NCBI GenBank assembly: GCA_937870845.1
Contig: CALMZR010000248.1
Coordinates: 1-54,926, forward strand
Direction of reading: 5' to 3'
DNA length: 54,926 nucleotides
From: an uncultured Chloroflexota bacterium
GTDB lineage: Bacteria > Chloroflexota > Chloroflexia > Thermomicrobiales > UBA6265
Of this stretch, positions 18,548 to 32,691 are shown one piece after another (within the stretch, counting starts at the first letter, position 1; each line of letters begins with the position of its first letter). The translations under genes were made by a program, and so were the position numbers. A model generated the notes under the pieces. That model did no database searches and had not been told where the DNA came from. It saw only the letters and a list, made by a program, of their open reading frames with translations.

Positions 18548-18678
18548 GGACACTCCTCTAACGGCGACAATGCTCTCGGTCTTGCCCGCGGAGTCTATCA
18601 GGCGTATCCGGTGGCTCGGGCTTGACGGCGCTGAGTAGACTGCGGCCATCTGGCGATTCGGGCGGGGGAGAAGCCGAC

Positions 18679-19092
18679 TTGGAGCTGAGAGACGACGTGC
18701 GCGCATTCCTGGACGAGCCGCGCTTCGGGGTGCTGGGCACGGTGAATGGCGACGGCAGCCCGCAGCAGACGGTGATGTGGTACGTGCTGCGCGGCGGCAC
18801 GGTGATGATGAACACCAGGCGGGGCCGCAAGAAGGACCGCAACCTGCTGCGCGATGCGCGGGCCTCCCTCTGCATCGAAGACGGCTTCCGCTACGTGACG
18901 CTCGACGGAACCATCCGCATGGTCGAGGATCAAGACGTCGCCCAGGCCGATATCGCCGCCCTCGCGCGCCGGTACCATGACGCGGACGAGGCCGAGCGAA
19001 TGGCGCGCGACGTGTTCGCTCCCCAGGAACGAATTTCTTTGCTGCTCAGCTTCGACCGCGTCGACGTCCACGGGTTCGACGGCGAGGAGTGA
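18679..19092 (+). CDS. PPOX-class (pyridoxamine 5'-phosphate oxidase-like) probable F420-dependent oxidoreductase
   Basis: FLDEPRFGVLGTVNGDGSPQQTVMWYVL...NTRRGRKKDRNL is the split-barrel pattern. TTG 18679 follows GGGGGAG (the ORF track start 18622 is an alternative). It sits immediately upstream of cofD. Confidence 0.78.
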   Translation: MELRDDVRAFLDEPRFGVLGTVNGDGSPQQTVMWYVLRGGTVMMNTRRGRKKDRNLLRDARASLCIEDGFRYVTLDGTIRMVEDQDVAQADIAALARRYHDADEAERMARDVFAPQERISLLLSFDRVDVHGFDGEE

Positions 19093-19095
19093 GCG

Positions 19096-20046
19096 GTGAT
19101 CGTCGCGCTCGCGGGCGGCGTCGGGGGAGCCAAGATGGCGCACGGCTTGCAGGCCGCGCTGCCGCCGGGCGCGCTGACGACCATCGTCAACACGGCCGAC
19201 GACTTCGACCTGTACGGATTGCGCATCTGCCCCGATCTCGATACCGTCATGTACACCCTGGCCGGGATTGCCGATCCGGTTAACGGGTGGGGCGTGGCGG
19301 GGGACAGCCGCAACACGCTCGATGCCATCGCCCGGTACGGCGAGCATCCATGGTTCCTCCTGGGCGACCAGGACTTCGCCACCCACATCCTGCGCACCGA
19401 GCGATTGCGAGCTGGAACGCCGCTCTCCGCGGTCACGGCGGAGCTCGCCGCGTCCCTCGGCATACCCGGACGCATCCTGCCCATGACCGACGATCGGGTG
19501 GCTACCTTGATCGATACCCCTTCGGGGCGGCTGGAGTTCCAGGAGTACTTCGTCGCCCGGCGCCAGAGCGACGACGTGCTCGGCGTCGTTTTCGCCGGGA
19601 TCGACGAGGCGACAGCGAACGCCGGTGTCCTCGATGCCATTCGCGATGCCAAGACGATCGTCGTCGCGCCGTCGAATCCGATCGTCAGCGTGGGACCGAT
19701 CCTGGCCACGCCGGGAATCCGCGCGGCGCTGGAGCGGACGGAGGCGCCGATCGTGGCGGTCAGCCCCATCGTCGGCGGGCGGGCGCTCAAAGGGCCGGCG
19801 GCGCAGATGCTGGCCACGCTCGGCCACGAGGTCTCGGCGCTGGGCGTGGCGCGGTTGTATGCCAGTCTGGTGGATGGGATGGTCATCGATGCCGCCGACC
19901 GCGAATTGACCGCGGAGATCGAACGGCTCGGGCCGCGGGTGCTCGTGACGGAAACGGTGATGGGCGACGAAGCGGATCGGAGGCGGTTGGCGGCCGAGGT
20001 GCTCGAGTTCGCCGGCTCGCTTGCCTTGCATCGGATGGCCGTTTAG
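19096..20046 (+). CDS. cofD: 2-phospho-L-lactate transferase (F420 biosynthesis)
   Basis: IVALAGGVGGAKMAHGL, TIVNTADDFDLYGLRICPDLDTVMYTLAG and NPIVSVGPIL are typical of CofD/FbiA. Confidence 0.93.
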   Translation: MIVALAGGVGGAKMAHGLQAALPPGALTTIVNTADDFDLYGLRICPDLDTVMYTLAGIADPVNGWGVAGDSRNTLDAIARYGEHPWFLLGDQDFATHILRTERLRAGTPLSAVTAELAASLGIPGRILPMTDDRVATLIDTPSGRLEFQEYFVARRQSDDVLGVVFAGIDEATANAGVLDAIRDAKTIVVAPSNPIVSVGPILATPGIRAALERTEAPIVAVSPIVGGRALKGPAAQMLATLGHEVSALGVARLYASLVDGMVIDAADRELTAEIERLGPRVLVTETVMGDEADRRRLAAEVLEFAGSLALHRMAV

Positions 20047-20065
20047 GTTGGCGACCCGTGATTCG

Positions 20066-20833
20066 ATGGGCCAAACGCCACGTACCCCGCGTCAAGCAGT
20101 GCAGGCAGCGCTCCCGCCGCAGGCGATCTTCGAGGCTGGCGGTTCGCCAGTGAGCATCCACGCGAGCCGCGAGCAAATCGTCGCGATCGTGCCGATTCGC
20201 TCGTTCCGCAACGGCAAGACGCGCTTGACGCCTGTGTTCGATCGCGAGGCGAGGGAGGCGCTCTTGCGGGCCACGGCAGAGGGCGTCGTTGCCGCCGGGC
20301 GCAACGCCGAATGCGTCGAGACGGTGCTGGTCGTCAGCCCTGATGCCGAGGTTCTGGCGTGGGCAACCCGGATGGGACCGGGCGTGGCCCCCCTGGCTCA
20401 ATCAGGTTCGATGCCGGGTCTCAACGGGGCGATCGCGGCGGGCCGGGAATGGGCGCTTGCCGCAGGGGCGACCGCTATTCTCTCGTTGTTCGCCGACTTG
20501 CCGTTTCTTACCGAGGACGACATACACACCCTTGTCGCGCGCCCCGAGCCGGTCGTCCTCGGCCCAGATCGGCACGGTGAGGGCACGAATGCGTTGCTGC
20601 TCCGGCTTCCCGACAGCGGCGCCGCGTTCCAGTTCGCGTTCGGCGAAGGCAGTCTGAACCGGCACATCGACGAGGCGCGGAGACTCGGGCTTGACGCGGG
20701 GATCGTGCGCGCCCCTGGGCTCGCATTCGACCTCGATACGCCTGGGGATTGGGCCGACTATCTAACGGCGCGGCGCGAGTGGGTCATCGAGGCCGAGCCA
20801 TGTTTGCTGCCGTGTCGGGCGGGCATCGCGTGA
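20066..20833 (+). CDS. cofC: 2-phospho-L-lactate / PEP guanylyltransferase (F420 biosynthesis)
   Basis: IVAIVPIRSFRNGKTRL and the GTNALLL pattern indicate a CofC/FbiD-like protein. Start uncertain (ATG 20066 or GTG 20150). Confidence 0.8.
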   Translation: MGQTPRTPRQAVQAALPPQAIFEAGGSPVSIHASREQIVAIVPIRSFRNGKTRLTPVFDREAREALLRATAEGVVAAGRNAECVETVLVVSPDAEVLAWATRMGPGVAPLAQSGSMPGLNGAIAAGREWALAAGATAILSLFADLPFLTEDDIHTLVARPEPVVLGPDRHGEGTNALLLRLPDSGAAFQFAFGEGSLNRHIDEARRLGLDAGIVRAPGLAFDLDTPGDWADYLTARREWVIEAEPCLLPCRAGIA

Positions 20834-21609
20834 AGGCCGCGGGCGGCGAGGTCCGCATCATCGGCATCGACGGCATCCCCGAGGTGGCCGCGGGCGACGA
20901 CCTGCCTGCGTTGCTCGGCGAGGCCATCGCGGAGTCCGGCGCCGGCCTGCAAGCGGGCGACATCGTGGTCGTCACGCACAAGATCGTCTCCAAAGCCGAG
21001 GGGCGGATCGTCGATCTCACGACGGTCGAGCCGTCGCTGCTGGCGACGCAGTGGGCAAACCGGTGGGGGAAGGATCCGCGCAAGATCGAGGTGGTGCTGC
21101 GGGAGTCGCGGCGCATCGTGCGCATGCACAACGGGCTGATCATCGCCGAGACGGCGCACGGGCTCGTCTGCGCCAACGCGGGGGTGGATGCCTCGAATGC
21201 CGCGCCGGACGCGGTCGTCCTGCTACCAGAAGATCCTGATGGTTCCGCCGCGAAGCTGCGGGAGGCGCTCAGGCGACGGTTCGGGTTCGGCGAGAGCGAT
21301 GCTCCAGCCGTCATCGTCAGCGATTCGTTCGGCCGGCCCTGGCGGCACGGAATCGTCAACGTCGCGATCGGGGTAAGCGGCATGGCTCCGCTGGTCGATT
21401 ACCGCGGTCAGACCGACGCCGCCGGGTACGAGCTGTCGGCATCAATCCTGGCCGTCGCGGACGAGGCCGCCTCCGCCGCCGAGTTGGTAATGCACAAACT
21501 GGCGGGGCGGCCGGTGGCCATCGTTCGAGGATACCTGTCTCCGTTGGCAGGTTCGTCGGGAACCGGAAAAGACCTGATCATGGAGGCGGAGCGGGACCTG
21601 TTTCGGTAA
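20830..21609 (+). CDS. cofE: Coenzyme F420-0:L-glutamate ligase, stand-alone (no C-terminal nitroreductase domain)
   Basis: GDIVVVTHKIVSKAEGR, GLVCANAGVDASN and SDSFGRPWRHGIVNVAIG. The GTG start overlaps the cofC stop (GTGA at 20830-20833). Confidence 0.9.
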   Translation: MKAAGGEVRIIGIDGIPEVAAGDDLPALLGEAIAESGAGLQAGDIVVVTHKIVSKAEGRIVDLTTVEPSLLATQWANRWGKDPRKIEVVLRESRRIVRMHNGLIIAETAHGLVCANAGVDASNAAPDAVVLLPEDPDGSAAKLREALRRRFGFGESDAPAVIVSDSFGRPWRHGIVNVAIGVSGMAPLVDYRGQTDAAGYELSASILAVADEAASAAELVMHKLAGRPVAIVRGYLSPLAGSSGTGKDLIMEAERDLFR

Positions 21610-21646
21610 GATCGCGCGGCATCGCGCGAAGGAGAAAAGCGGGACC

Positions 21647-22642
21647 ATGGGCACGGTGGGCTACGCGGCGTCGATGGAGCAGTTCGCCCCGAGCGACTTG
21701 CTGCGCTACTGCCAGCTGGCGGAGGACCAGGGGTTTGCCGCGGTGATGGCGTCGGACCATTTCAATCCCTGGGTGCCTTCGCAGGGGGAGTCAGGGTTCG
21801 TCTGGTCGTTCATGGGGGCGCTGGGAGCGACGACGAAGCTTCGCTTCGGGCCGGGGGTGACGCCGCCGGGGTATCGCTACCACCCGGCCATCATCGCCCA
21901 GGCGGCGGCGACGCTGGAAGAGATGTATCCCGGCCGCTTCTACCTCGGGCTCGGCGCGGGCGAGGCGCTCAACGAGCACATCGTCGCCCAGTACTGGCCC
22001 GAGGCGCCGATCCGGCTCGAGCGGCTGATGGAGTCGATCGAGATCATCCAGAAGCTCTTCACCGGCAAGAAGATCAAGCACCGGGGCACGCACTTCACCC
22101 TGGAGAGCGCCCGCCTGTGGACGATGCCCGAATCCCCGCCGCCGATCTACGTGGCGACCTCGGGCCCGATCATGGCCTACCGCACCGGGAAGTTCACGGA
22201 TGGGCTGATTACGGTGGGCGCCGCCGACGAGAAGCTGAAAATGCTCCTGGAGCGGTACGAGACGGGAGCGCGCGAGGCGGGCAAAGACCCGGCGACGATG
22301 CCGAAGATGCTGCAGGTGAAAGTCTCGTACGCGCCGACGGTGGAGGAAGCGACCGAGCGGGCGGTGCAGGACTGGCCGAACGGCGGCATGGCCTTCCCCA
22401 AGGGGGACATCCGGGAGCCGGAAGACTTCGAAGCGATGGCCAAGCTCGTCCGCCCGGACAACTACAAGAACCGCGTTCTCATCGCCTCCGACCCGGACGA
22501 GCACGTGGCATACCTGCAGCACTTCATCGATCTCGGCTTCGGCGAGATCTACGTCCACAACGTCGGCCGCGGCCAGGAACCGTTCATCAAGGTTTATGGG
22601 GAGCGGGTGATCCCGAAGCTGCGCTGGCCGGACGGAGGGTGA
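21647..22642 (+). CDS. LLM-class F420-dependent oxidoreductase, glucose-6-phosphate dehydrogenase (Fgd) family
   Basis: GYAASMEQFAPSDLL..., ASDHFNPW and FYLGLGAGEALNEHI. GAAGGAG precedes the ATG. Confidence 0.88.
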   Translation: MGTVGYAASMEQFAPSDLLRYCQLAEDQGFAAVMASDHFNPWVPSQGESGFVWSFMGALGATTKLRFGPGVTPPGYRYHPAIIAQAAATLEEMYPGRFYLGLGAGEALNEHIVAQYWPEAPIRLERLMESIEIIQKLFTGKKIKHRGTHFTLESARLWTMPESPPPIYVATSGPIMAYRTGKFTDGLITVGAADEKLKMLLERYETGAREAGKDPATMPKMLQVKVSYAPTVEEATERAVQDWPNGGMAFPKGDIREPEDFEAMAKLVRPDNYKNRVLIASDPDEHVAYLQHFIDLGFGEIYVHNVGRGQEPFIKVYGERVIPKLRWPDGG

Positions 22643-22715
22643 CAGGGTGACGGGGTGTCCGGGTGTTAGGATCAACCTATTCCCTGACACCCTGACACCT
22701 TGAGACCCTGTCACC
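22635..22715. repeat. Repeat family R1 copy 3
   Basis: gagggtgacagggtgacggggtgtccgggtgttagg ... ccctgacaccctgacaccttgagaccctgtcacc form imperfect inverted arms. The fgd-like stop TGA (22640-22642) lies inside the first octamer. Confidence 0.8.
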
Positions 22716-22720
22716 AATCG

Positions 22721-22731
22721 CCTGCTATACT
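22721..22731 (+). promoter_or_regulatory. Candidate extended -10 promoter (TGcTATACT) for the riboswitch-led operon
   Basis: cctgcTATACTcg places a transcription start about 5-8 nt before riboswitch stem P1 (22743). Confidence 0.4.
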
Positions 22732-22742
22732 CGCCCCGTCAA

Positions 22743-22885
22743 GCCTTCGGGGTTGTGGTGAGGCCGTCGAGTTATGGCGGCCAAGTCCCGACCGGCGGTA
22801 GAGCCCGCGAGCGAGCGCGCGACGTCGCGCAAGCACGATCCGGTGAGATTCCGGAGCCGACGGTACAGTCCGGATGGGAGAAGGC
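22743..22885 (+). promoter_or_regulatory. FMN riboswitch (RFN element) aptamer
   Basis: P1 is gccttc...gaaggc. The conserved RFN blocks are present in order: CTTCGGGG..GGTG..GTCCCGACCGGCGGTAGAGCCCGCGAGCG....ATCCGGTGAGATTCCGGAGCCGACGGTACAGTCCGGATGGGAGAAGG. This closely parallels the Bacillus subtilis ribD leader as I remember it. Confidence 0.87.
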
Positions 22886-22950
22886 GTGCGGGCGGCGGCG
22901 GCCGATGACGGCCCCGGCCGTTCGTGGCGCTTTGCCGAAACGTCGACAAC

Positions 22951-22974
22951 GCCCGGAGGATGATTCCTCCGGGC
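22951..22974 (+). terminator. Candidate riboswitch expression-platform hairpin (terminator or RBS sequestor)
   Basis: gcccggagga-tgat-tcctccgggc gives a perfect 10-bp stem followed by gctcttgtg. It lies between the aptamer and the first ORF start. Confidence 0.45.
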
Positions 22975-23016
22975 GCTCTTGTGCCCGGGGTCGCTTCGTG
23001 CAGCCGGGCGCCGTCG

Positions 23017-23961
23017 ATGGTCGGACTCCTCGTCAATCGAATGTTCTTCGCCGTGGCTGTGCTGTTTGGCGTGGTCAGCGTCACGTTTGCCCTGATGCAC
23101 CTGGCGGGCGATCCGCTGGCGGGGTTGATCCCGCCGGGCGCGCCGCCCGACGTCGAGAACGACATCCGGCGCAGCTACGGTCTCGACCGTCCGGTCCCGG
23201 AGCAGTACCTCGATTTCGCGAGCCGGGCGATGCGCGGGGATTTTGGCGAGTCGTGGCGTCAGGGCCGGCCGGCGCTGGCGGCGGTGCTGGAACGGTTGCC
23301 GGCGACGATGGCCCTGGCGTCCCTGGCGATTGCCCTCGCGATCCTTGTCGGCGGGTTCCTGGGCGTGGCCGCGGCGGCGCGGCCGGGTTCGCCGTGGGAC
23401 GCCGGAGCACGGCTGGCCGCGCTGCTGGGGCAGGCGATACCCGCGTTCTGGCTCGGCACGATGCTGATCCTCGTGTTCGCCGTCGATCTGCGCTGGTTGC
23501 CCGCGTCCGGGCTGCCCGGCCCCGCTGGGGTCATCCTGCCGGCGCTTGCGCTGGCGGCGTACCCGGCCGCGACGCTGATGCGATTGCTGCGGGCATCGAT
23601 GGTGGAGACCCTGGGCGCCGACTACATCCGCACGGCGCGGGCCAAAGGGCTATCTCGACGGCGAATACTGCTTGAACACGCGTTGCGCAACGCCGCGTTG
23701 CCGGCGCTGGCGTTCACCGGGCTGCAGGCCGGGTTCCTCCTCGGCGGGGCGGTTATCGTGGAGGGGGTGTTCGCCTATCCCGGGATCGGCGGCTTGGCGC
23801 TCGATGCCGTTGCGACGCGCGACATCCCGCTGGTGGAAGCGTTCGTCTGGGTGGTGGCGCTCCTCATCCTGGGGGTCAACACGCTGGCTGGCCTGATCGC
23901 GGCGTGGATCGATCCCCGGCTGCGGGAGCGGGCGGCTGCGTTCGGGGGCGCGGCGCCATGA
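23017..23961 (+). CDS. ABC transporter permease, DppB/OppB type
   Basis: N-terminus MVGLLVNRMFFAVAVLFGVVSVTFALMHLAGDP, and the EAA-loop region YIRTARAKGLSRRRILLEHALRNA. Confidence 0.88.
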   Translation: MVGLLVNRMFFAVAVLFGVVSVTFALMHLAGDPLAGLIPPGAPPDVENDIRRSYGLDRPVPEQYLDFASRAMRGDFGESWRQGRPALAAVLERLPATMALASLAIALAILVGGFLGVAAAARPGSPWDAGARLAALLGQAIPAFWLGTMLILVFAVDLRWLPASGLPGPAGVILPALALAAYPAATLMRLLRASMVETLGADYIRTARAKGLSRRRILLEHALRNAALPALAFTGLQAGFLLGGAVIVEGVFAYPGIGGLALDAVATRDIPLVEAFVWVVALLILGVNTLAGLIAAWIDPRLRERAAAFGGAAP

Positions 23962-24863
23962 ACGCGGTCGACTTCGCCGTCCGGCCGACGGCGGCTCAGG
24001 CGTCGCCGACGTCGCTGCCCCGGGCAGCGTTGCTCGGTTGGCCGGATACGGTTCGTTATTCGGGGAGCGCGGCGATTGGTCTGACGCTCCTCGCGGCGCT
24101 GGCGATGCTCGCCCTGATTGGGCCTGCCTGGTGGCCACTGCATCCGGAAACGCAGGACTTGGCGAACCGACTGGCTCCTCCGTGGGGATTCGGCGGCACG
24201 GCCGCCCATCCCCTCGGCACGGATTCGCTCGGCCGGGACACGCTGGCGCGGGTGATCGCCGGGGCGCGGGTCTCCTTGCCGTTGAGCGTCGCGGCGACCG
24301 CGGCCGCCGGTGTGGTTGGAGTAACGCTTGGTGTGCTGGCGGGGTATCGAGGTGGCTGGGTCGATGGGATCGTGTCGTGGCTCTCGGACGTTCAGCTGGC
24401 CATTCCGTTCGTGGTGTTCGCCATCGTCGTCACCGCGACGTTTGGCCATTCCGTCGCCAACATCCTGCTCACCCTCGTCGTCACCGGCTGGGTAGCGTAC
24501 GCACGGGTGATTCGGTTGCAGACGCAAGCGCTGCGGCAGGCAGCGTGGATGGAGGCCGCTCGGGCAATGGGGGCCGGGCCCGTGAGGTTGCTGGGAAGGC
24601 ATCTCCTGCCGAACCTGGCCGCGACCGTGGCGATTCTGGCGACCCAACAAGCGGGGGCGATGATCCTCTATGAGTCATCGCTCAGCTTCCTCGGGCTGGG
24701 TCTTGGCGGCAGCACGGTGACGTGGGGCGGCATGGCCGCGCTGGGGCGGGACGCGGTTTTCACGGCGCCGTGGGCCGCCGCCGTTCCGGGCGCGGTCATC
24801 GCCGCGGCGATGCTGGGGTTCAACCTGACCGGAGACTGGCTGGCGACGCGAGGTCGTCGCTAG
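23958..24863 (+). CDS. ABC transporter permease, DppC/OppC type
   Basis: HPLGTDSLGRDTLARVIAGARVSL and AARAMGAGPVRLLGRHLLPN. The ATG overlaps the upstream stop (ATGA). Confidence 0.88.
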   Translation: MNAVDFAVRPTAAQASPTSLPRAALLGWPDTVRYSGSAAIGLTLLAALAMLALIGPAWWPLHPETQDLANRLAPPWGFGGTAAHPLGTDSLGRDTLARVIAGARVSLPLSVAATAAAGVVGVTLGVLAGYRGGWVDGIVSWLSDVQLAIPFVVFAIVVTATFGHSVANILLTLVVTGWVAYARVIRLQTQALRQAAWMEAARAMGAGPVRLLGRHLLPNLAATVAILATQQAGAMILYESSLSFLGLGLGGSTVTWGGMAALGRDAVFTAPWAAAVPGAVIAAAMLGFNLTGDWLATRGRR

Positions 24864-24903
24864 AGTGGCTGTAGGGCGTCGCGCGACGCCGGAGGTGAGT
24901 TGG

Positions 24904-26523
24904 ATGAAGTATTCCCACGATTGGGAGCCGAGAGTCCTCGCTGGCGCTCGGAATGACACCCTTCGAGAGTGGCAGGATGCCAGGCGAGTGATGTCGCGGC
25001 GGTCGTTGCTGGGAATGGGCGCCGTTGCCGCGACCGGGCTCCTCGTACCCACGGGATTGCCCTCGGCGCGAGCGCTCCCGGCATCTCAGACGGACGCCGC
25101 GGGCGAGCTGACGATCGATCTGGCGGTCGAGCCGCCGACGCTCGACCCGGCGCTGGTGTACGAGGCGGATGGCTGGTCGGTGGTCCACTCGATCTACGAC
25201 GCGCCGGTGCAGCTCGGGCCGGGCGGGGCGCTGCAGATGGTGGCGGCCGAAGCGATGACCCAGGTCGACGACCTGACGTGGGAGATTCGGCTGCGGCCGG
25301 GGATCGCCTTCCACAACGGCGAGCCGCTGGAATCCTCGTCCATCGCCTTCTCCGTGGCTCATATCCTCGATCCGGAGACGGCCTCGCAAGTGGCCGGCTC
25401 GTTCGGCGTGATCGAGGAGGTCGAGGAGGTCGATTCCCTGACCGCGCGGTTGCTTCTCTCCACTCCCGCGCCGTGGCTGCCGTCGCAGATCGCGCCGTGG
25501 CTGGCGCTGCTGCCGCCGGAGTACGCGGGCGACCCCGCCAACGATTTCGCCAACAATCCCGTGGGTACGGGACCCTATCGGTTCGTGCGATGGGATCGCG
25601 GATCGCAAATCGTCCTGGAGCGGAACGAGCAATACCAGGCCAGCGGGGCAAAGGGTGAACCAATCGCGGGGAGCGTCACGGTCCGCTTCGTCGCGGATGG
25701 CACGACGCGCGTGACCGACATTGTCTCCGGCGCCAGTCAGCTCGTGCGATCTGTCCCGTTCGATCAGTTGCAGGTCGTCGCGGAGACTGCCGACGTGATC
25801 GCGCAGCCGATCGCGGGGTGCGCCTTCGTGCGCATTCCGACCGACGTCTCCCCGTTCGATAACCCGGCGGTGAGGCTGGCGATGAACCACGCGGTCGACG
25901 TGGAGGGCATTATCGCCGCGTTGTTTGGCGGCAACGGGGAGCGTTTGGCCAATGTGTTCGTCCCCGGCGGTCTCGGTTACGATGAGTCGCTGGCGCCGCA
26001 CGTGTACGATCCGGAGTTGGCGAGGCAGCTTCTGGCGGAAGCGGGCTTTGCGGATGGATTCAGTACGCGGCTGGCGCACACCACGAGCGACCGGGCCGAT
26101 CTGGCCGCCGCCGTGGCCGGGCAGCTCGCCGCGGTCGGCATCGAGGTGGCGCTGGAGCCGGTGGAGACGGCGACGTTCAATGCCACCTGGAAGGACCCTG
26201 AAGCGGCCCCGCTGCGATTTCTCACGTGGCGGCCGTTGTACGATCCGTTCACGCTGCTCGGCCTCGTCATCTCCAGCTCAGGATTTCTCTCCCGTTACAG
26301 CGATCCGGAGGCGCAAGCGTTGATCGAGGCGGGCGCGGCGGAGACCGATCCCGAGGAGCGGGATCGCCTCTACCGTGAGCTGGGCCAGGTCTTGCACGCA
26401 TCGCCGGCCGGCATCTATTTGTGGAGTTTGACGTCGTTCTACGGACTGTCTCGCGACGTGCAGGGATGGACGCCGCGGCCGGACGACTGGATTCTTCCCC
26501 TGGCCGCGGAGGGAGCATCGTGA
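24904..26523 (+). CDS. ABC transporter substrate-binding protein, family 5 (peptide/nickel type), Tat signal
   Basis: SRRSLLGMGAVAATGLL twin-arginine signal. NPVGTGPYRFVRWDRGSQIVLERNEQY is typical of SBP_bac_5. ATG 24904 follows GGAGGTG (alternative ATG 24991). Confidence 0.85.
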   Translation: MKYSHDWEPRVLAGARNDTLREWQDARRVMSRRSLLGMGAVAATGLLVPTGLPSARALPASQTDAAGELTIDLAVEPPTLDPALVYEADGWSVVHSIYDAPVQLGPGGALQMVAAEAMTQVDDLTWEIRLRPGIAFHNGEPLESSSIAFSVAHILDPETASQVAGSFGVIEEVEEVDSLTARLLLSTPAPWLPSQIAPWLALLPPEYAGDPANDFANNPVGTGPYRFVRWDRGSQIVLERNEQYQASGAKGEPIAGSVTVRFVADGTTRVTDIVSGASQLVRSVPFDQLQVVAETADVIAQPIAGCAFVRIPTDVSPFDNPAVRLAMNHAVDVEGIIAALFGGNGERLANVFVPGGLGYDESLAPHVYDPELARQLLAEAGFADGFSTRLAHTTSDRADLAAAVAGQLAAVGIEVALEPVETATFNATWKDPEAAPLRFLTWRPLYDPFTLLGLVISSSGFLSRYSDPEAQALIEAGAAETDPEERDRLYRELGQVLHASPAGIYLWSLTSFYGLSRDVQGWTPRPDDWILPLAAEGAS

Positions 26524-26561
26524 GCGCAACGACGGAAACCGGGCATCGAGAGTAGGCGGCC

Positions 26562-27668
26562 ATGAGCGAGCGTGGCCCGGAAGTGAGACTGGCCGGGCGC
26601 GGCGTGCGCGGGGACGATTGGGAGTTTGTCCGCGAGCGCCGGGTCGGCCGGTTGGCCACGGCGGATGCGGAAGGGACGCCGTCGGTCGTCCCGGTCGTCT
26701 ACGCGGCGCTCGTCCTCGACGAGGAACCGGTCATCGCCATTGCCATCGACGAAAAGCCGAAGGGCGACCCTTACCGGTTGCGGCGGGTCCGCAACATCCA
26801 GGAGCGCCCAGAGGTCGCCCTCCTCGTCGACGACTACGACGAGGATTGGTCGCGGTTGGCATGGGTGCTGGTGCGCGGCTCGGCGGCGCTTGCCGAGCCG
26901 GGCGACGCTGGGCACGGAGAGGCGATTGCGGGGCTGAGGGAGAAGTACCCGCAGTACGCGAGGATGCGCCTGGAATCGCTGCCGGCGATTCTGATACGGG
27001 GTCTGTCGATGCGCTTCTGGCAAGGCAGCGATGGCGGCGACGCCGCTCCGGAGCGCCCAGGCCGGCAGGAGCTGGCGGCGCTCGTCCGTGGCAGGCGTTC
27101 CGTGCGGGCGTTCGACTCGCGGCCCGTGCCGCGCGACGTCATCGAGGAGTCGATCGCGGCAGCTGGCTGGGCGCCGTCGCCGCATGGGCGGCAGCCGTGG
27201 CGGTTCGTCGTCGTCGAGTCGCAGGAACGTCGCGATGCGCTCGCGGACGCAATGGCCGAGACGTGGCGCGCCCAATTGCGGCTCGACGGTCAGGACCAAT
27301 CCACGGTGGAGGCGCGGCTGGTGAAGAGCAGGGACCGCTTGCACCGGGCGCCGGTCCTGATCGTACCCTGCCTCTATCTGGAAGGGCTCGACGTCTATCC
27401 GGACGGCGACCGGCAGCGAGCGGAGGAGACGATGGCGGTGCAGAGTTTGGGCGCCGCCGTGCAGAATCTGCTGCTGTCGCTGTACGCGGCCGGGGTTGAC
27501 GGCGGGTGGATGTGTGCGCCGCTCTTCTGCCCTGAGGTGGTTCAGGAGGTCCTCGGGCTCGGTCGTGCGCTGAACCCGCATGCATTGATCGCCGTCGGGT
27601 ACGCGGCGGCCGATCCGGTGCGCCGCCCGCGGATGCCGCTGCACGAGTTGATCGTCGATTGGCAGTGA
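26562..27668 (+). CDS. Two-domain fusion: N-terminal PPOX-class split-barrel domain plus C-terminal nitroreductase-fold domain resembling the FbiB C-terminal (dehydro-F420-0 reductase) domain
   Basis: N-terminal domain: RRVGRLATADAEGTPSVVPVVYA...RNIQERPEVALLVDDYDEDWSRLAWVLVRG. C-terminal domain: RRSVRAF, APSPHGRQPWRFVVV, WRAQLRLDG, YPDGDRQRAEETMAVQSLGAAVQNLLL, ALIAVGY. Confidence 0.75.
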   Translation: MSERGPEVRLAGRGVRGDDWEFVRERRVGRLATADAEGTPSVVPVVYAALVLDEEPVIAIAIDEKPKGDPYRLRRVRNIQERPEVALLVDDYDEDWSRLAWVLVRGSAALAEPGDAGHGEAIAGLREKYPQYARMRLESLPAILIRGLSMRFWQGSDGGDAAPERPGRQELAALVRGRRSVRAFDSRPVPRDVIEESIAAAGWAPSPHGRQPWRFVVVESQERRDALADAMAETWRAQLRLDGQDQSTVEARLVKSRDRLHRAPVLIVPCLYLEGLDVYPDGDRQRAEETMAVQSLGAAVQNLLLSLYAAGVDGGWMCAPLFCPEVVQEVLGLGRALNPHALIAVGYAAADPVRRPRMPLHELIVDWQ

Positions 27669-27727
27669 CTGGCGCGGGCCGGGTTCGGAATGCAATCTGG
27701 ACCACGCCCACTGTGCGGTCCAGGAGG

Positions 27728-27815
27728 CTGTCATTCCGATGAAGGAGAACCCTCTGCCTCCATGGGACGATGCTTCCGCTGAGCCGAGATTCGTCGCTTC
27801 GCACGGAATGACAAG
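27728..27815. repeat. Repeat family R2, inverted pair (27728-27758 plus, 27783-27815 minus)
   Basis: ctgtcattccgatgaaggagaaccctctgcc and gccgagattcgtcgcttcgcacggaatgacaag. Together they can form a long hairpin between convergent genes. Confidence 0.7.
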
Positions 27816-27995
27816 AATTCGGCAGGCGGCTCTAACGGGACGTTGTGGGATTCGGCTAGCGCGGCGAGATCGTGGTTCCGGGTGCAATCGGCCTGGACCG
27901 ACGATGGCGCGCCCGCACGCCAGTGCGCCGGTCGCGCCGATGGCCGGCCCCGTGCGAATCGCGGGGCTCCGCAAGCGATCGCCACCTGGTCCGGT

Positions 27996-29324
27996 TCAGA
28001 ACAACCCGAGATAGCGGATCGACACGTAGATCGTCGAAACGACCAGGCTCACCAACGCGAACGGCAATCCGACGCGGGTGAACCCCCAGAAGCCGATATG
28101 GTCGCCCCTGCGGTCAGCGATCCCCACGGCGACGACGTTGGCCGACGCCCCGACCAGCGTGCCGTTTCCACCCAGGCAAGCTCCCAACGCCAGCGACCAC
28201 CAGAGCGGGGTCACCGATGGATGCGCCGCCAGGGCCATATCGTCCAGGCCCGCTAATTCCGGAAAGAGCAGCCGCGACATGGAAAACGTCAGCGGGATAA
28301 GCGTCGCCACCGCCGGGATGTTGTCGACCACCGCCGAGGCGATCCCGGCAAACCAGAGGAGTCCGATGGCGGCCAGCGCCACATTGCCTCCCACCAGCCC
28401 GATCACCGAGCGCGCCACCTGATCCATCAGCCCGACCGCCTCGATGCCGCCCACGACGATGAAGAGCCCGATGAAGAAGAAGATCGTCGACCACTCGACC
28501 TCGGCCAGCACGTCGTGCGGATCGATCCGGCTCAGGAGGAGCAGCGTCACGGCGCCGAAGACGGCGATCGTCCCGGCCTGGTAGTGCAGCACCCCGTGCA
28601 GGAAGAACCCGACAACCGTCAGCGCCAGCACGAGGAGCGAGATGCGCAGCAGCTTCGGGTCGCCGAGGTGGGCGGTGACGTCCGCCTCGACCAGAGCGTG
28701 CTGACTTTCCGGCGTCGGCGTGCCCAGCCGCCCGTTACGCCCGTACGCGAGCCAGAACCCTCCGATCATCATTGGCAGCAGGATCAGCACCAGCGGCCCG
28801 AGGTTCACCAGGAACGCCAGAAAATCGAGTCCAGTCGCTCCGCCGATGAGGATGTTCGGCGGATCGCCGATGAGGGTCGAGGTGCCGCCGATGTTGCTGG
28901 CGATCACCTGCGTGATCAGGAACGGGCGCGGGTCGAGCCCGAGATCGTCGCTGAGCGCGATGGTGACCGGGGCGATGAGCAGGATCGTGGTCACGTTATC
29001 CAGCAGCGCCGACGCCACGGCGGTGAAGAGCGCGAACCCAACCATCATCCGCCACGGGTCGCCGCCCAGCGCCACCGCCGTTCCCCAGGCGGCGAAGCGG
29101 AAAATGCCGGTCTGCCGCAGCACGTTGACGATGATCATCATGCCGACCAGCAGGGCGATGGTGTTGGGGTCGATCGCCCCCAGCGCCGACTCCTGGTTGA
29201 GCACGCCGAAGGCGATCATCGCCGCGCCCCCGGCCAGCGCCACCGTCGTCCGGTTCAGCCGCTCGCTGATGATCACCGCGTACGTGACGACGAAGATGAT
29301 CGTCGCGATCATCAGCTCCGACAT
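27996..29324 (-). CDS. ArsB/NhaD (IT superfamily) anion/cation permease
   Basis: MSELMIATIIFVVTYAVIISERLNRT..., SALLDNVTT and GGTSTLIGDPPNILIG. GGAGGGAGG precedes ATG 29324. Confidence 0.85.
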   Translation of the reverse strand: MSELMIATIIFVVTYAVIISERLNRTTVALAGGAAMIAFGVLNQESALGAIDPNTIALLVGMMIIVNVLRQTGIFRFAAWGTAVALGGDPWRMMVGFALFTAVASALLDNVTTILLIAPVTIALSDDLGLDPRPFLITQVIASNIGGTSTLIGDPPNILIGGATGLDFLAFLVNLGPLVLILLPMMIGGFWLAYGRNGRLGTPTPESQHALVEADVTAHLGDPKLLRISLLVLALTVVGFFLHGVLHYQAGTIAVFGAVTLLLLSRIDPHDVLAEVEWSTIFFFIGLFIVVGGIEAVGLMDQVARSVIGLVGGNVALAAIGLLWFAGIASAVVDNIPAVATLIPLTFSMSRLLFPELAGLDDMALAAHPSVTPLWWSLALGACLGGNGTLVGASANVVAVGIADRRGDHIGFWGFTRVGLPFALVSLVVSTIYVSIRYLGLF

Positions 29325-31441: not shown

Positions 31442-31485
31442 CTTGGGGTCCTTGCGGTCGCGTACCCCCGCGCCGGCGCTGCCGC

Positions 31486-32691
31486 TCAGCAGCAGGTCGC
31501 CGCGGCGGGCTCGCCGCCGGACGACTGACTGGCGATCGCCGCGGGTACGATCACCTCTTCGATAACTGGGATCGGGCGCTGCTGCTGCTCCGGCGCCACC
31601 GGGTCGGCCCCGGCGAACAACGTCGTGACCACCAGATCGAGCCCCGGCACGACGTAGATCAACTGCCCGCCGTACCCCTGCGCAGAGAACGCCGGCCACC
31701 CCGCCGGCTCCTGGATCCACCAGTGATAGCCGTACGAGCCGTGGCCGATGTTGACGCCACTGAGGTAGCCAACGCCGCTCGATTGCACCTCCGTCGAACG
31801 GTCGACCCACTCCTGGCTGATGATCTGTCTGCCCTCCCAGCGTCCCCCATTCAGGTAGAGAAAGCCGATCTTGGCCATCTCCCGGGTATTGAGATGCAGC
31901 CCGCCGCCGCCGCGGTTCGTGTCGTCCTCCGTCACGACCCAGTACGGCTTCGCGATCCCTAGCGGATCGAAGAGCCGAGGCTGGAGATAGTCGGCCATCG
32001 TCTGCCCGGTCAGCTCTTCGACCACGAAGGCGAGCAGGTTCGAGCAGCCGGAGTCGTACTCGAAGCAGGTCCCGGGGTCGCACTGCATCGGGCGGCGCAG
32101 CATGGCGTCGATGTCGTCCGTTTCGTGCGTGCGGGAAAAGTTGATGCGCCCGTCCCACGCCCAGCCTCCGGTCATCGTCAGCAGTTGCTCGATGGTGACG
32201 TTCCACACCCGTGGATCGGCGTCGGCCGGGATGCGGTAGGGGATCAGCTCGCCGAGCGTCTGGTCCAGGCTGGCGATGACCCCCTCTTGCAAGGCGAAGC
32301 CGACGGCAATGTTGGTGACGCTCTTGCTCACCGACCACGTGTGAGGCCGCTGATCGAGCGAATAGCCGTTGTAATTGCGCTCGAAGACGATGTACCCATC
32401 CTTGACGACGACGATCGACGACAGCAGCGGCGCTTCGGCCCGCAGCCGTTCATCGGCCCAGTCGAGCATCCCGGGGTCAATCCCATGCTGCTCCGGCGGC
32501 GCCGTTTTCCAGCCCGCGGTCGGCCAATAGTCGCGGGTTGCCGATGCCTCTTGCGCCAAGCCCACATTCACGGCTGGAATCGCGGAGATGGTCAAGAGCG
32601 CGGTCAAGGCGACGAACCTGAGGACGTGAGCGAACAAAACGATCGAAGCTCCCCGCGGAAAAACGTGCACGGGATCGAACGACGCCAGCAA
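31486..32691 (-). CDS. Serine hydrolase, beta-lactamase/transpeptidase-like (class C / D-aminopeptidase-like), paralog 1
   Basis: SxxK motif SVSKSVTNIAVG and GYGGQLIYVVPGLDLVV. N-terminal signal/anchor. Confidence 0.82.
   Translation of the reverse strand: MLASFDPVHVFPRGASIVLFAHVLRFVALTALLTISAIPAVNVGLAQEASATRDYWPTAGWKTAPPEQHGIDPGMLDWADERLRAEAPLLSSIVVVKDGYIVFERNYNGYSLDQRPHTWSVSKSVTNIAVGFALQEGVIASLDQTLGELIPYRIPADADPRVWNVTIEQLLTMTGGWAWDGRINFSRTHETDDIDAMLRRPMQCDPGTCFEYDSGCSNLLAFVVEELTGQTMADYLQPRLFDPLGIAKPYWVVTEDDTNRGGGGLHLNTREMAKIGFLYLNGGRWEGRQIISQEWVDRSTEVQSSGVGYLSGVNIGHGSYGYHWWIQEPAGWPAFSAQGYGGQLIYVVPGLDLVVTTLFAGADPVAPEQQQRPIPVIEEVIVPAAIASQSSGGEPAAATCC

What the first reader, a model, noticed from the sequence alone, without database searches (positions are those of the whole stretch)
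26562..27668. PPOX-domain::FbiB-C-terminal-like nitroreductase fusion; the FbiB function appears split and rewired
What the sequence shows:
- cofE in this window (20830-21609) is a stand-alone ligase without the nitroreductase-fold domain that mycobacterial FbiB carries.
- A domain with the FbiB C-terminal sequence pattern (RRSVRAF, PSPHGRQPWRF, WR.QL..DG, YPDGDRQRAEETMAVQSLGAAVQNLLL) is instead fused to an N-terminal PPOX-class split-barrel domain.
- This fusion gene is the last gene of the FMN-riboswitch-led operon, 38 nt after the SBP gene.

What established knowledge adds: the FbiB C-terminal domain is reported to use FMNH2 to reduce dehydro-F420-0.

Inference: putting this step under FMN sensing, and pairing it with a second flavin/deazaflavin-binding fold, is a domain architecture and regulatory logic I do not recognise as described.
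Basis: partly seen in the sequence, partly recalled or inferred. Interest (0 to 1): 0.72.

Follow-up and report, generated by a model that had tools for sequence, protein, structure and literature searches.

The report
F420-maturing reductase fused to deazaflavin-binding domain
This gene joins the enzyme module predicted to finish making the redox cofactor F420 to a second F420-binding domain of unknown function and sits behind an FMN-sensing RNA switch; the enzyme step itself is already known, but the fusion and the switch are conserved and I found no description of them.

Summary
ORF 26562-27668 (+) encodes a 368-aa two-domain protein. Residues ~20-155 are a TIGR03668/FDOR-B2 split-barrel domain whose closest structure is F420-bound MSMEG_6526. 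Residues ~171-368 are an FbiB-C-terminal/"FbiE"-type nitroreductase domain. A flexible linker joins them.

It is not a frameshift artefact: both halves are in one frame in 80 of 80 related genomes (Thermomicrobiales, Chloroflexia, Ktedonobacterales, Thermobaculum, Rubrobacter).

Splitting FbiB into CofE plus a separate reductase is already known for Chloroflexi (T. roseum FbiE, Braga 2020 as cited in a 2021 review). I found no description of two other features:
- The fusion to FDOR-B2, a family of unknown function.
- Control by an FMN riboswitch. In the window's clade an FMN riboswitch with a conserved terminator, two permeases and a binding protein lie directly upstream of the fusion gene. 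Riboswitches were found in 16 fusion-type sources: 14 by Rfam (window plus 13 of 13 scanned loci) and 2 by motif only. The same logic recurs elsewhere with a RibXY-type transporter and an unfused FbiE.

Most likely function: dehydro-F420-0 reductase. The N-domain may feed F420H2 electrons to FMN, but this is inference only.

Verdict: a new variant of a known kind, of moderate interest.

The parts
18622..19092 (+). PPOX-class F420-dependent oxidoreductase of the TIGR03618 (Rv1155) family; first gene of the F420 cluster
   Evidence: TIGR03618 97.6 bits against a 79.05 cutoff. It is conserved ahead of cofD in related loci.
19096..20046 (+). cofD (2-phospho-L-lactate transferase / FbiA type)
   Evidence: TIGR01819 320 bits against a 257 cutoff.
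20021..20833 (+). cofC (guanylyltransferase / FbiD type). The HMM match begins at residue 55, so the true start is probably further downstream.
   Evidence: TIGR03552 145.5 bits against a 105 cutoff, residues 55-249.
20830..21609 (+). cofE, a stand-alone F420-0:gamma-glutamyl ligase with no NTR domain
   Evidence: TIGR01916 258 bits. It matches the FbiB model NF009810 only over positions 9-243 of 449.
21647..22642 (+). Luciferase-like F420-dependent oxidoreductase of the Fgd-related family TIGR03557. It is very highly conserved. In relatives that lack the transporter cassette it lies directly upstream of the fusion gene.
   Evidence: TIGR03557 312 bits against a 210 cutoff. It is 92-95% identical in L001, L002 and L027, where neighbouring genes are 58-89% identical.
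22739..22889 (+). FMN riboswitch aptamer (RF00050)
   Evidence: 83.9 bits against a gathering score of 66.2, full model 1-138. Orthologous aptamers are found in 13 of 13 Rfam-scanned related loci and by motif in L020 and L027.
22950..22983 (+). Riboswitch expression platform: GC-rich hairpin CGCCCGGAGG-atgatt-CCTCCGGGCG followed by CTCTTGTG, read as an intrinsic terminator
   Evidence: The hairpin is conserved with compensatory stem changes and is followed by TTTTTGTG-type tails in most of the 17 sources inspected, including L085. It is not evident in L009 and L077, and the tail is weak in L008. The window's own T-tract is weak, and the simple terminator scan did not call it.
23017..23961 (+). 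ABC permease of the Opp/Nik 'B' type. The ORF opens at 22924, but the start is more likely the ATG at 23017, after the terminator.
   Evidence: BPD_transp_1 117.8 bits. NF045470 285 bits, below its cutoff. HMM alignments start at residue 32, and the N-terminus MVGLLVNR is conserved in relatives.
23904..24863 (+). ABC permease of the Opp/Nik 'C' type
   Evidence: BPD_transp_1 and OppC_N. NF045474 218.8 bits, below its cutoff.
24865..26523 (+). Family-5 solute-binding protein (SBP_bac_5). Its ligand is unknown; a flavin is inferred from the riboswitch.
   Evidence: PF00496 232.6 bits. No equivalog model reaches its cutoff.
26562..27668 (+). The fusion gene: FDOR-B2 (TIGR03668)::FbiE-type dehydro-F420-0 reductase, 368 aa
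   Evidence: More than 100 clusters share the same two Pfam domains. 80 of 80 loci are in frame.
26622..27026 (+). N-terminal split beta-barrel domain (residues ~21-155), FDOR-B2 / Rv0121c / MSMEG_6526 family
   Evidence: TIGR03668 142 bits, above its cutoff. phmmer E 2e-15 to 4ZKY and 5JV4. Foldseek TM 0.84 to F420-bound 5JV4. 16 family-specific near-invariant residues are shared with stand-alone members.
27030..27071 (+). Interdomain linker (residues 157-170), predicted disordered
   Evidence: pLDDT below 50. The length of the linker region varies from 14 to 43 residues among 81 homologs.
27072..27665 (+). C-terminal nitroreductase-fold domain (residues 171-368), FbiB-C / FbiE type
   Evidence: TIGR03553 178.8 bits. 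phmmer E 9e-32 to 4XOM. Foldseek TM 0.85-0.89. It is 59.6% identical to the T. roseum stand-alone NTR next to cofD-cofC. P207 and M291 (Mtb P289 and M372) are invariant.

Best explanation
The gene encodes the dehydro-F420-0 reductase (FbiE function) of this Thermomicrobiales-like bacterium, carried on a two-domain protein.

**C-terminal domain.** The nitroreductase-fold domain binds FMN. As FMNH2, it reduces the enolpyruvyl tail of dehydro-F420-0 made by the CofC/CofD enzymes encoded 5-7 kb upstream. This gives F420-0, which the stand-alone CofE then glutamylates. The step is assigned by homology and gene context; it has not been assayed.

**N-terminal domain.** This is an intact FDOR-B2 (TIGR03668/Rv0121c/MSMEG_6526) F420-binding split barrel, tethered by a flexible linker. 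Its most likely role is to take a hydride from reduced deazaflavin and pass it to FMN, regenerating FMNH2 for the reductase domain. The reduced deazaflavin could be F420H2 or reduced dehydro-F420, and may be supplied by the conserved neighbouring Fgd-like LLM enzyme. This role is inference only, at roughly 0.3 on its own.

**Regulation.** In this lineage the gene is the last cistron of a unit made of an FMN riboswitch with an intrinsic terminator, two ABC permeases, a solute-binding protein and the fusion gene. It is therefore transcribed together with a presumed flavin importer when FMN is scarce and shut off when FMN is plentiful. Co-transcription is inferred from the 38-nt gap and the lack of an intervening terminator. 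The physiological rationale is not established. One possibility is that the cell compensates for poor FMN loading of an FMN-dependent step.
For: **Identity of the C-domain**
- The best HMM is FbiB-C, at 178.8 bits against 68 bits for BluB.
- The methylene-pocket residues named by Bashiri 2019 (P289 and M372) are invariant in 81 of 81 fusion proteins and in the T. roseum NTR.
- The domain is 59.6% identical to the T. roseum NTR that sits in cofD-cofC-DMT-NTR. T. roseum is reported to use an independent FbiB-C homolog.
- That T. roseum protein scores lower on TIGR03553 (163 bits) than the window domain does.
- In distant relatives the fusion gene directly follows cofE-LLM in the cof operon, usually with overlapping or short gaps.
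- Unfused homologs sit in cofD-cofC-(cofE)-NTR operons.

**Identity and integrity of the N-domain**
- TIGR03668 scores above its cutoff.
- Foldseek gives TM 0.84 to F420-bound MSMEG_6526.
- There are 22 near-invariant positions, of which 16 are shared with stand-alone family members.

**Fusion is real:** 80 of 80 loci are in frame.

**Regulation**
- Rfam finds the riboswitch in the window and in 13 of 13 scanned loci of this type. A motif scan adds L020 and L027.
- The terminator hairpin is conserved with compensatory changes in most of them.
- The unit also occurs away from the cof genes, in L007, L014 and L022.
- There is an independent recurrence with a RibXY-type transporter and an unfused FbiE in L085.

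**Need for an FMN reductant:** the published FbiB assay had to supply FMNH2 using E. coli Fre.
Against: - No enzymatic data exist for any fused member.
- The C-domain is below the curated TIGR03553 cutoff (178.8 against 249.55).
- Mtb R337, the proposed carboxylate contact, is K here and varies among homologs (K, G, N, R).
- I could not read Braga et al. 2020. I therefore could not confirm that WP_012643075.1 is the protein they assayed, or that they did not mention the fusion.
- The electron-relay role has no direct support. pTM 0.53 gives no defined interdomain geometry.
- T. roseum keeps its TIGR03668 gene far from its F420 genes.
- Many Chloroflexota use an unfused FbiE, so the N-domain is dispensable for the reaction in cis.
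- An FMN-OFF switch on an FMN-dependent enzyme is counter-intuitive.
- The window's terminator T-tract is weak (CTCTTGTG) and no promoter was called.
Confidence: 0.7

Rival explanations
1. The reductase assignment is right, but the N-domain is not a redox partner. It acts as a deazaflavin-binding 'handle' that captures dehydro-F420-0 or holds the product. This would be substrate channelling or hand-off to CofE, playing the role that fusion to CofE plays in actinobacterial FbiB.
For: - MSMEG_6526 crystallises with F420 bound yet shows only weak activity on tested substrates and has no known function.
- The flexible linker fits a tethered binding module.
- In Actinobacteria the same reductase is fused to a different partner, CofE. 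This suggests that fusion serves proximity in the pathway.
Against: - The family keeps a set of near-invariant polar residues (D63, K65, K67, R75, Y92, Y129, Y132), which is typical of a catalytic or cofactor site.
- Other FDOR-B families are hydride transferases.
- Nothing distinguishes binding from catalysis computationally.
Confidence: 0.2
2. The NTR domain's main job in this clade is flavin handling rather than F420 maturation. It would act as a flavin reductase or flavin-modifying enzyme on imported riboflavin or FMN. That would explain why it rides with flavin importers behind FMN riboswitches.
For: - Two non-homologous riboswitch-controlled transporters precede fused or unfused NTR genes: the Opp type in the window and 15 loci, and the RibXY type in L085.
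- T. roseum has a DMT transporter immediately upstream of its NTR.
- The unit can sit away from the cof genes, as in L007, L014 and L022.
- The domain is below the FbiB-C equivalog cutoff.
Against: - In an unbootstrapped NJ tree, fused and unfused members fall together in one clade with a long stem. Members of this group are embedded in cofD/cofC/cofE operons in other lineages.
- The dehydro-F420 methylene-pocket residues P and M are invariant.
- In the window the cof genes are only 5 kb upstream, in the same orientation.
- BluB and generic flavin or nitro-reductase models score far lower.
Confidence: 0.07
3. The two domains are functionally unrelated. An F420H2-dependent reductase for some other substrate became fused to FbiE by chance, and the fusion is retained only because both depend on the same cofactor pool.
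For: - FDOR and LLHT genes of unknown role are commonly found next to F420 biosynthetic genes (Fig. 10 legend).
- Stand-alone TIGR03668 genes in T. roseum, Haladaptatus and Streptomyces are not next to F420 genes.
Against: - The fusion is kept intact in 80 of 80 sampled genomes across at least two phyla, with strong constraint on both halves.
- Always the same FDOR subfamily (B2) is fused, although these genomes encode other PPOX-class proteins, such as the TIGR03618 gene at 18622.
Confidence: 0.08
4. Artefact: two adjacent genes were merged by a sequencing or assembly frameshift.
For: None found.
Against: - The reading frame is continuous in the window.
- It is continuous in 80 of 80 independent assemblies.
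- More than 100 protein clusters of 350-411 aa carry both Pfam domains.
Confidence: 0.01

Closest known systems
FbiE, the stand-alone dehydro-F420-0 reductase of Thermomicrobium roseum (Braga et al. 2020, as summarised in PMC8498797). Candidate protein: WP_012643075.1.
   Same: - Same NTR-fold module, 59.6% identical over residues 186-368.
- Both fall in the same clade of the NJ tree.
- Same invariant pocket residues.
- Both are linked to cofD/cofC, and both belong to organisms with a stand-alone CofE.
   Different: - The T. roseum protein is 225 aa with no PPOX domain. Its TIGR03668 homolog is a separate gene about 560 kb away on the megaplasmid.
- There is no FMN riboswitch in the T. roseum cluster.
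- Its upstream transporter is of the DMT type, not an ABC transporter.
FbiB of Mycobacterium tuberculosis (Rv3262), C-terminal domain; PDB 4XOM, 4XOO, 4XOQ
   Same: - Closest solved structure: E 9e-32, 36% identity, TM 0.85-0.89, rmsd about 2.5 A.
- The RRSVR and PxPH motifs and residues P289 and M372 are conserved.
- Same inferred FMNH2-dependent reduction of dehydro-F420-0.
   Different: - In FbiB the fusion partner is the CofE ligase; here it is an FDOR-B2 split barrel, and CofE is a separate gene.
- R337 is K here.
- The window domain scores below the FbiB-C equivalog cutoff.
MSMEG_6526 / Rv0121c family (FDOR-B2, TIGR03668); PDB 4ZKY and 5JV4
   Same: - The N-domain passes the family HMM cutoff.
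- It is 35% identical with TM 0.84 to the F420-bound structure.
- It shares 16 near-invariant family residues.
   Different: - The known members are stand-alone proteins of about 140 aa with unknown physiological substrate.
- Here the domain is covalently linked to an F420-biosynthetic enzyme.
FMN-riboswitch-controlled RibXY riboflavin importer operons of Chloroflexi (PMC3766115, PMC4418817)
   Same: - An FMN riboswitch precedes an ABC importer that lacks an ATPase gene.
- In L085 a RibXY-type pair is followed by an unfused FbiE.
   Different: - The window's transporter is of the Opp/Nik type: SBP_bac_5 plus two permeases. It is not homologous to RibXY and is not among the riboflavin transporters listed in those surveys.
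- Neither survey reports an NTR or F420 gene in the FMN regulon.

Membership tests
FbiE / FbiB C-terminal domain (dehydro-F420-0 reductase, NTR superfamily) | Nitroreductase fold with the FMN-binding motif | tested here: met
   PF00881 119 bits over the full 167-position model. Foldseek TM 0.85-0.89 to FMN-bound and F420-bound 4XOO and 4XOQ. R178 and R182 of the RRSVR motif are invariant.
FbiE / FbiB C-terminal domain (dehydro-F420-0 reductase, NTR superfamily) | Scores better to FbiB-C than to BluB or generic NfsA/NfsB models | tested here: met
   TIGR03553 178.8 bits, against BluB 68.2, NfsA-type 30.5 and NfsB-type 27.7-27.8 bits.
FbiE / FbiB C-terminal domain (dehydro-F420-0 reductase, NTR superfamily) | Reaches the curated TIGR03553 equivalog-domain cutoff (249.55 bits) | tested here: not met
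   178.8 bits. The model appears tuned to actinobacterial FbiB. The T. roseum stand-alone NTR scores 163.4 bits, and other cof-operon NTRs score 146-149 bits.
FbiE / FbiB C-terminal domain (dehydro-F420-0 reductase, NTR superfamily) | Substrate-pocket residues of Mtb FbiB: P289 and M372 (methylene pocket) and R337 (carboxylate contact) | tested here: inconclusive
   P289 maps to P207 and M372 to M291; both are invariant in 81 of 81 fusions. R337 maps to K255 in the window, varies among homologs (K 47, G 17, N 7, R 3, I 2) and is G in the T. roseum NTR.
FbiE / FbiB C-terminal domain (dehydro-F420-0 reductase, NTR superfamily) | Genomic association with cofC/cofD/cofE | tested here: met
   In the window the cof genes lie at 19096-21609, on the same strand. 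In type-B loci the fusion directly follows cofE-LLM. Unfused homologs sit in cofD-cofC-(cofE)-NTR operons.
FbiE / FbiB C-terminal domain (dehydro-F420-0 reductase, NTR superfamily) | Catalyses FMNH2-dependent reduction of dehydro-F420-0 | not testable with these tools
   This needs an enzyme assay with LC-MS detection.
FbiB (bifunctional CofE::NTR protein of Actinobacteria) | N-terminal F420:gamma-glutamyl ligase (CofE) domain on the same polypeptide | tested here: not met
   The N-terminal half is PNPOx/TIGR03668, not PF01996. NF009810 matches only its positions 257-447. CofE is a separate gene at 20830-21609.
TIGR03668 / FDOR-B2 (Rv0121c, MSMEG_6526) F420-dependent PPOX-class family | Family HMM above the curated cutoff | tested here: met
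   142 bits against a 119.15 cutoff, residues 22-147 on model positions 8-134 of 141.
TIGR03668 / FDOR-B2 (Rv0121c, MSMEG_6526) F420-dependent PPOX-class family | Split beta-barrel fold matching the F420-bound structure, with the family-specific conserved residues | tested here: met
   Foldseek TM 0.84 and rmsd 2.5 A to 5JV4 and 4ZKY. 16 near-invariant residues are shared with four stand-alone members and mostly absent from the TIGR03618 outgroup.
TIGR03668 / FDOR-B2 (Rv0121c, MSMEG_6526) F420-dependent PPOX-class family | Binds F420 rather than FMN | not testable with these tools
   Inferred only from family membership and the F420-bound homolog structure.
FMN riboswitch (RF00050) regulon | Aptamer above the Rfam gathering score, upstream and on the same strand | tested here: met
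   83.9 bits against 66.2, at 22739-22889.
FMN riboswitch (RF00050) regulon | Expression platform able to control the downstream genes | tested here: met
   A terminator hairpin with a T-tract is conserved with compensatory changes in most of the 17 sources inspected; it is not evident in L009 and L077. The window's own T-tract is weak (CTCTTGTG), and the generic scan did not call it.
FMN riboswitch (RF00050) regulon | The fusion gene is on the riboswitch-controlled transcript | not testable with these tools
   This is inferred from three things: the 38-nt SBP-fusion gap, the absence of a predicted terminator or promoter in between, and mostly short or overlapping gaps in relatives.
BluB (5,6-dimethylbenzimidazole synthase) | TIGR02476 equivalog cutoff (150 bits) | tested here: not met
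   68.2 bits. phmmer to BluB structure 2ISJ gives only E 1.5e-8, against 9e-32 for FbiB-C.

The most novel reading that the evidence does not exclude
The FDOR-B2 family is conserved in Mycobacterium tuberculosis and most F420 producers as Rv0121c/MSMEG_6526/TIGR03668, and its function is unknown. It may be the missing physiological partner of the dehydro-F420-0 reductase. As an F420H2:FMN (or reduced-dehydro-F420:FMN) oxidoreductase it would supply the FMNH2 that FbiB-C/FbiE needs. F420 maturation would then be self-priming, and this fusion would be the Rosetta stone for an orphan mycobacterial enzyme. In addition, Thermomicrobiales may have repeatedly placed this last F420 step and a flavin importer under one FMN riboswitch. 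That would couple deazaflavin maturation to flavin status. The window's Opp-type cassette would then be a new family of flavin importers.
Probability: 0.25. Interest if true: 0.75.

Novelty: new variant of a known kind. Interest (0 to 1): 0.5.

Why it matters
- **Electron source.** F420 is needed for activation of the antitubercular prodrugs pretomanid and delamanid and is wanted for biocatalysis. The published FbiB-C assay had to use E. coli Fre to make FMNH2, and I found no native reductant described. A conserved fusion of the reductase to an F420-binding FDOR-B2 domain gives a concrete, cheap-to-test hypothesis for that reductant.
- **Orphan family.** The same hypothesis would assign a function to the orphan Rv0121c/MSMEG_6526 family.
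- **Production.** If the fused enzyme runs on F420H2 without an external flavin reductase, it could simplify heterologous F420 production.
- **Regulation.** The riboswitch linkage adds an F420-biosynthetic gene, and a candidate new flavin ABC importer, to the FMN regulon.
- **If the relay idea fails.** The finding is then an ordinary lineage-specific domain fusion of a known enzyme.

Tried and rejected
- **Primary paper.** Braga et al. 2020 (PMC7267189) is not held. Searches for the T. roseum accession or locus tag, 'FbiE', 'TIGR03668', 'Rv0121c' with F420 and fusion-related terms found no description of the fusion. This is absence from the held library only.
- **Stand-alone TIGR03668 contexts.** The gene neighbourhoods in T. 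roseum, Haladaptatus and Streptomyces are uninformative; none is next to F420 genes.
- **Promoter and terminator scan.** The scan of 18000-28200 called no promoter and missed the riboswitch terminator. A TATACT box about 7 nt before the aptamer start is only my reading of the sequence.
- **Trees.** NJ trees without bootstrap place the T. roseum NTR inside the fusion clade and its PPOX among the fused N-domains. They cannot decide between fission and repeated fusion.
- **Structure model.** The AF2 monomer gives no usable interdomain geometry (pTM 0.53), so it cannot test the relay model.
- **ATPase search.** No ABC ATPase genes were found among the neighbouring genes checked.
- **Rejected readings.** BluB and generic nitroreductase are rejected on scores. 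Frameshift artefact is rejected.
Full report
**1. Observation**

The ORF at 26562-27668 (+) is real.

- Pfam finds PNPOx_N at residues 21-129 and Nitroreductase at 175-347.
- NCBIfam places the N-half in TIGR03668, the 'Rv0121 family PPOX class F420-dependent oxidoreductase'. It scores 142 bits, above the 119.15 cutoff.
- The C-half scores best on TIGR03553 (FbiB C-terminal domain), at 178.8 bits over model positions 4-192 of 194. This is below the 249.55 cutoff.
- BluB scores 68 bits and the NfsA/NfsB-type models about 30 bits or less.
- cofE (20830-21609) is a stand-alone ligase. cofD, cofC, a TIGR03618 PPOX gene and an Fgd-family LLM gene complete a cluster on the same strand.
- An FMN riboswitch (RF00050, 83.9 bits) lies at 22739-22889. 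Two Opp/Nik-type permeases, an SBP_bac_5 protein and, 38 nt later, the fusion gene follow it.

The C-domain is FbiB-C-like rather than BluB-like or NfsA/B-like. The two halves are in one frame with no stop in 80 of 80 related genomes.

**2. What the two domains are**

By sequence, the closest solved structure to residues 167-364 is the M. tuberculosis FbiB C-terminal domain (4XOM/4XOO/4XOQ, E 9e-32). The closest to residues 30-154 is MSMEG_6526 (4ZKY/5JV4, E about 2e-15).

An AlphaFold2 model has mean pLDDT 83.
- It shows two confident domains, at residues 17-155 and 171-368.
- A low-confidence linker at 157-170 joins them.
- pTM is 0.53, so the relative orientation of the domains is undefined.

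Foldseek confirms both assignments. FbiB-C gives TM 0.85-0.89 and rmsd about 2.5 A. F420-bound MSMEG_6526 gives TM 0.84.

MSMEG_6526 is classed as FDOR-B2, 'enzyme of unknown function', in the 2021 FEMS review.

The N-domain is not a decayed relic.
- It has 22 positions that are at least 95% conserved across 81 fusion proteins.
- Sixteen of these are shared with stand-alone TIGR03668 proteins from T. roseum, Haladaptatus, Streptomyces and M. smegmatis.

In the C-domain, the two residues that Bashiri et al. 2019 describe as the pocket for the enolpyruvyl methylene (P289 and M372) are invariant in all 81 fusions. The proposed carboxylate contact R337 is K in the window and varies among homologs.

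**3. What is already known**

[quoted passage not shown] 2020)'. It also states that actinobacterial FbiB arose by fusion of cofE with fbiE. The 'split' of FbiB into CofE plus a separate reductase is therefore the published state for Chloroflexi and is not new. I could not read Braga et al. 2020 itself.

On the T. roseum megaplasmid I found the arrangement cofD-cofC-DMT transporter-'nitroreductase family protein' (WP_012643075.1, 225 aa).
- This NTR is 59.6% identical to window residues 186-368 and has no PPOX domain.
- It is presumably the characterised FbiE, but I could not verify the accession.
- It scores 163 bits on TIGR03553, lower than the window domain. Missing the cutoff therefore does not separate the window domain from this FbiE candidate.

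T. roseum also has a separate TIGR03668 gene. It is 48.5% identical to the window's N-domain and lies elsewhere on the megaplasmid, in an uninformative context.

**4. How widespread the fusion is**

- More than 100 clusters (at 90% identity) of 326-411 aa are at least 69% identical to the query. Nearly all carry PF01243 plus PF00881. A few shorter ones of 326-328 aa show only PF00881 and may reflect start-site calls.
- Sources label them variously as 'TIGR03668 family PPOX class...', 'nitroreductase', or, wrongly, 'F420-0:L-glutamate ligase'.
- In species-representative genomes, at least 575 stretches encode a relative. The best 80 all match across both domains. They come from Thermomicrobiales, Sphaerobacteraceae, 'Chloroflexia', Ktedonobacterales, Thermobaculum and Rubrobacter, including cultured R. 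marinus.
- Unfused FbiE-type NTRs of 205-235 aa are also common in Thermomicrobium, Sphaerobacter, Nitrolancea and Ktedonobacteraceae. They are interleaved with fused forms at similar identity.
- In an NJ tree the fused C-domains, the T. roseum NTR and two short representatives form one clade with a long stem. That clade is separate from FbiB proteins of 450-480 aa and from other NTRs of about 200 aa.
- The N-domain tree groups the fused domains with the T. roseum and Haladaptatus stand-alone proteins.
- The trees have no support values, so they cannot decide between fission and repeated fusion.

**5. Gene context**

tblastn synteny across the 80 loci shows two main arrangements.

- *Type B* (Chloroflexia, Ktedonobacterales, one Rubrobacter): PPOX(TIGR03618)-cofD-cofC-...-cofE-LLM-fusion.
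  - The fusion start usually overlaps the LLM stop or lies within about 30 nt of it.
  - No FMN riboswitch is present in 9 of 9 loci scanned.
- *Type A* (the window and its closer relatives): a cassette of FMN riboswitch-permease-permease-SBP sits directly upstream of the fusion gene.
  - Where the flank is long enough, the cof-LLM genes are often immediately upstream (L001, L002, L003, L016, L021, L027).
  - In L007, L014 and L022 no cof gene lies within 10 kb. The riboswitch-transporter-fusion unit therefore also travels on its own.
  - Rfam finds the riboswitch in 13 of 13 type-A loci scanned that reach far enough upstream. A calibrated motif scan adds L020 and L027, and finds none in other loci.

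The expression platform is a GC-rich hairpin followed by a T-tract. It shows compensatory stem changes between loci, which marks it as an intrinsic terminator. It is conserved in most of the 17 sources inspected. In the window it is CGCCCGGAGG...CCTCCGGGCG at 22950-22975, followed by CTCTTGTG.

Control is therefore transcriptional and should cover all downstream cistrons, including the fusion gene. This also moves the likely permease start to the ATG at 23017.

**6. An independent recurrence**

An unfused FbiE homolog (P0386) lies in an operon of FMN riboswitch (92 bits)-SsuC-like permease-SsuA/NMT1-like binding protein-NTR. That transporter pair is of the RibXY type. RibXY is a known FMN-riboswitch-controlled riboflavin importer of Chloroflexi that lacks an ATPase gene. 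It is not homologous to the window's Opp-type cassette.

With the DMT transporter between cofC and the NTR in T. roseum, three different transporter families are found immediately upstream of this reductase, and two of them sit behind FMN riboswitches. This argues that the linkage is selected and is not an accident of insertion.

Neither of the two FMN-regulon surveys I read mentions a nitroreductase or an F420 gene.

**7. Mechanism**

*Shown by homology and context.* The C-domain is an FbiE-type, FMN-dependent dehydro-F420-0 reductase. It acts after CofC/CofD and alongside a stand-alone CofE.

*Inferred.* The N-domain binds F420. The published FbiB-C assay needed an exogenous flavin reductase (E. 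coli Fre) to make FMNH2, and I found no native reductant described. The simplest role for a tethered F420H2-dependent hydride transferase is therefore to reduce FMN for the neighbouring domain.
- From general knowledge, F420H2 (about -340 mV) can reduce FMN (about -200 mV) exergonically.
- The deazaflavin ring of dehydro-F420 is itself redox-active, so no bootstrapping paradox arises.
- The highly conserved Fgd-family LLM gene next to the fusion in type-B loci could supply the reduced deazaflavin.

I give this relay idea about 0.3. A non-redox substrate-capture role is the main alternative.

*Riboswitch logic.* The switch turns transcription off when FMN is high. Its purpose here is not explained. 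Compensation for poor FMN loading of an FMN-dependent step, or co-ordination of flavin uptake with deazaflavin maturation, are guesses.

**8. Verdict**

- The enzyme step and the CofE/FbiE split are known.
- The FDOR-B2::FbiE architecture is abundant in databases, but I found no discussion of it in the literature I could search.
- FMN-riboswitch control of an F420-biosynthetic gene also appears undescribed there.

This is a new variant of a known kind, of moderate interest. The main value is a testable functional lead for the orphan Rv0121c/MSMEG_6526 family.

Noticed in passing
window 22739-26523 (+): An FMN-riboswitch-controlled ABC importer of the Opp/Nik type: two BPD_transp_1 permeases and an SBP_bac_5 protein, with no ATPase gene. 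It is conserved with its riboswitch in 15 related loci. This transporter family is not among the riboflavin transporters listed in the 2015 survey (RibU, RibM, RibN, RfuABCD, ImpX, RfnT, RibXY, RibZ, RibV). It may be a new flavin, or FO, importer.
   Followed up: partly
L085 3681-6684 (ENA ERZ27280359 k141_1254430): FMN riboswitch, then a RibXY-type permease and binding protein, then an unfused FbiE-type nitroreductase. This is an independent instance of the riboswitch-transporter-reductase arrangement, using a non-homologous transporter.
   Followed up: partly
window 21647-22642 (+): The luciferase-like (TIGR03557, Fgd-family) gene is much more conserved than its neighbours: 92-95% amino-acid identity to L001, L002 and L027, against 58-89% for the flanking genes. 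In relatives without the transporter cassette it lies directly before the fusion gene. It also scores 351 bits on the 'flavin_revert' FMN-dependent model TIGR03885, below that model's cutoff.
   Followed up: partly
window 29603-32338 (-); also L087 10055-11758, L090 7345-9052, L091 7370-9076: A gamma-glutamyltranspeptidase gene recurs on the opposite strand close to fused or unfused FbiE genes in several Thermomicrobiales contigs. F420 carries a gamma-glutamyl tail, so a link is conceivable. It may equally be plain synteny.
   Followed up: no
L081 10912-11868 (T. roseum NC_011961.1 787933-788889): A DMT/EamA-family transporter gene sits between cofC and the stand-alone NTR in T. roseum, overlapping the cofC stop. 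From my own knowledge, the riboflavin transporter RibN is also of the DMT/EamA type. This is a third transporter family next to FbiE. No riboswitch is present there.
   Followed up: partly
window 18622-19092 (+): A second PPOX-class gene, of the TIGR03618 (Rv1155) family, heads the cofD-cofC-cofE cluster. It is conserved in that position across type-A and type-B loci. In L088 a gene of the same family follows cofC.
   Followed up: partly
window 22924-23017 and 20021-20183: Two mechanical ORF starts are probably too far upstream. The permease ORF opens at 22924, inside the riboswitch expression platform, and its likely start is the ATG at 23017. The cofC ORF opens at 20021, overlapping cofD, but its HMM match begins at residue 55.
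   Followed up: partly
window 38742-38835 (+): A selenocysteine tRNA (RF01852, 66.5 bits), which implies selenoprotein synthesis in this organism. An ordinary tRNA lies at 1226-1308.
   Followed up: no
window 22701-22738 (+): The 97-nt spacer between the LLM stop and the aptamer contains repeated CCTGACAC motifs and a TATACT box about 7 nt before the aptamer start. This may be the cassette's own promoter. The consensus scan did not call it.
   Followed up: no
L077 2849-2957 and L021 20341-20484: Other riboswitches lie near the fusion locus in relatives: a TPP riboswitch about 1.4 kb upstream of the FMN riboswitch in L077, and a cobalamin riboswitch downstream in L021.
   Followed up: no
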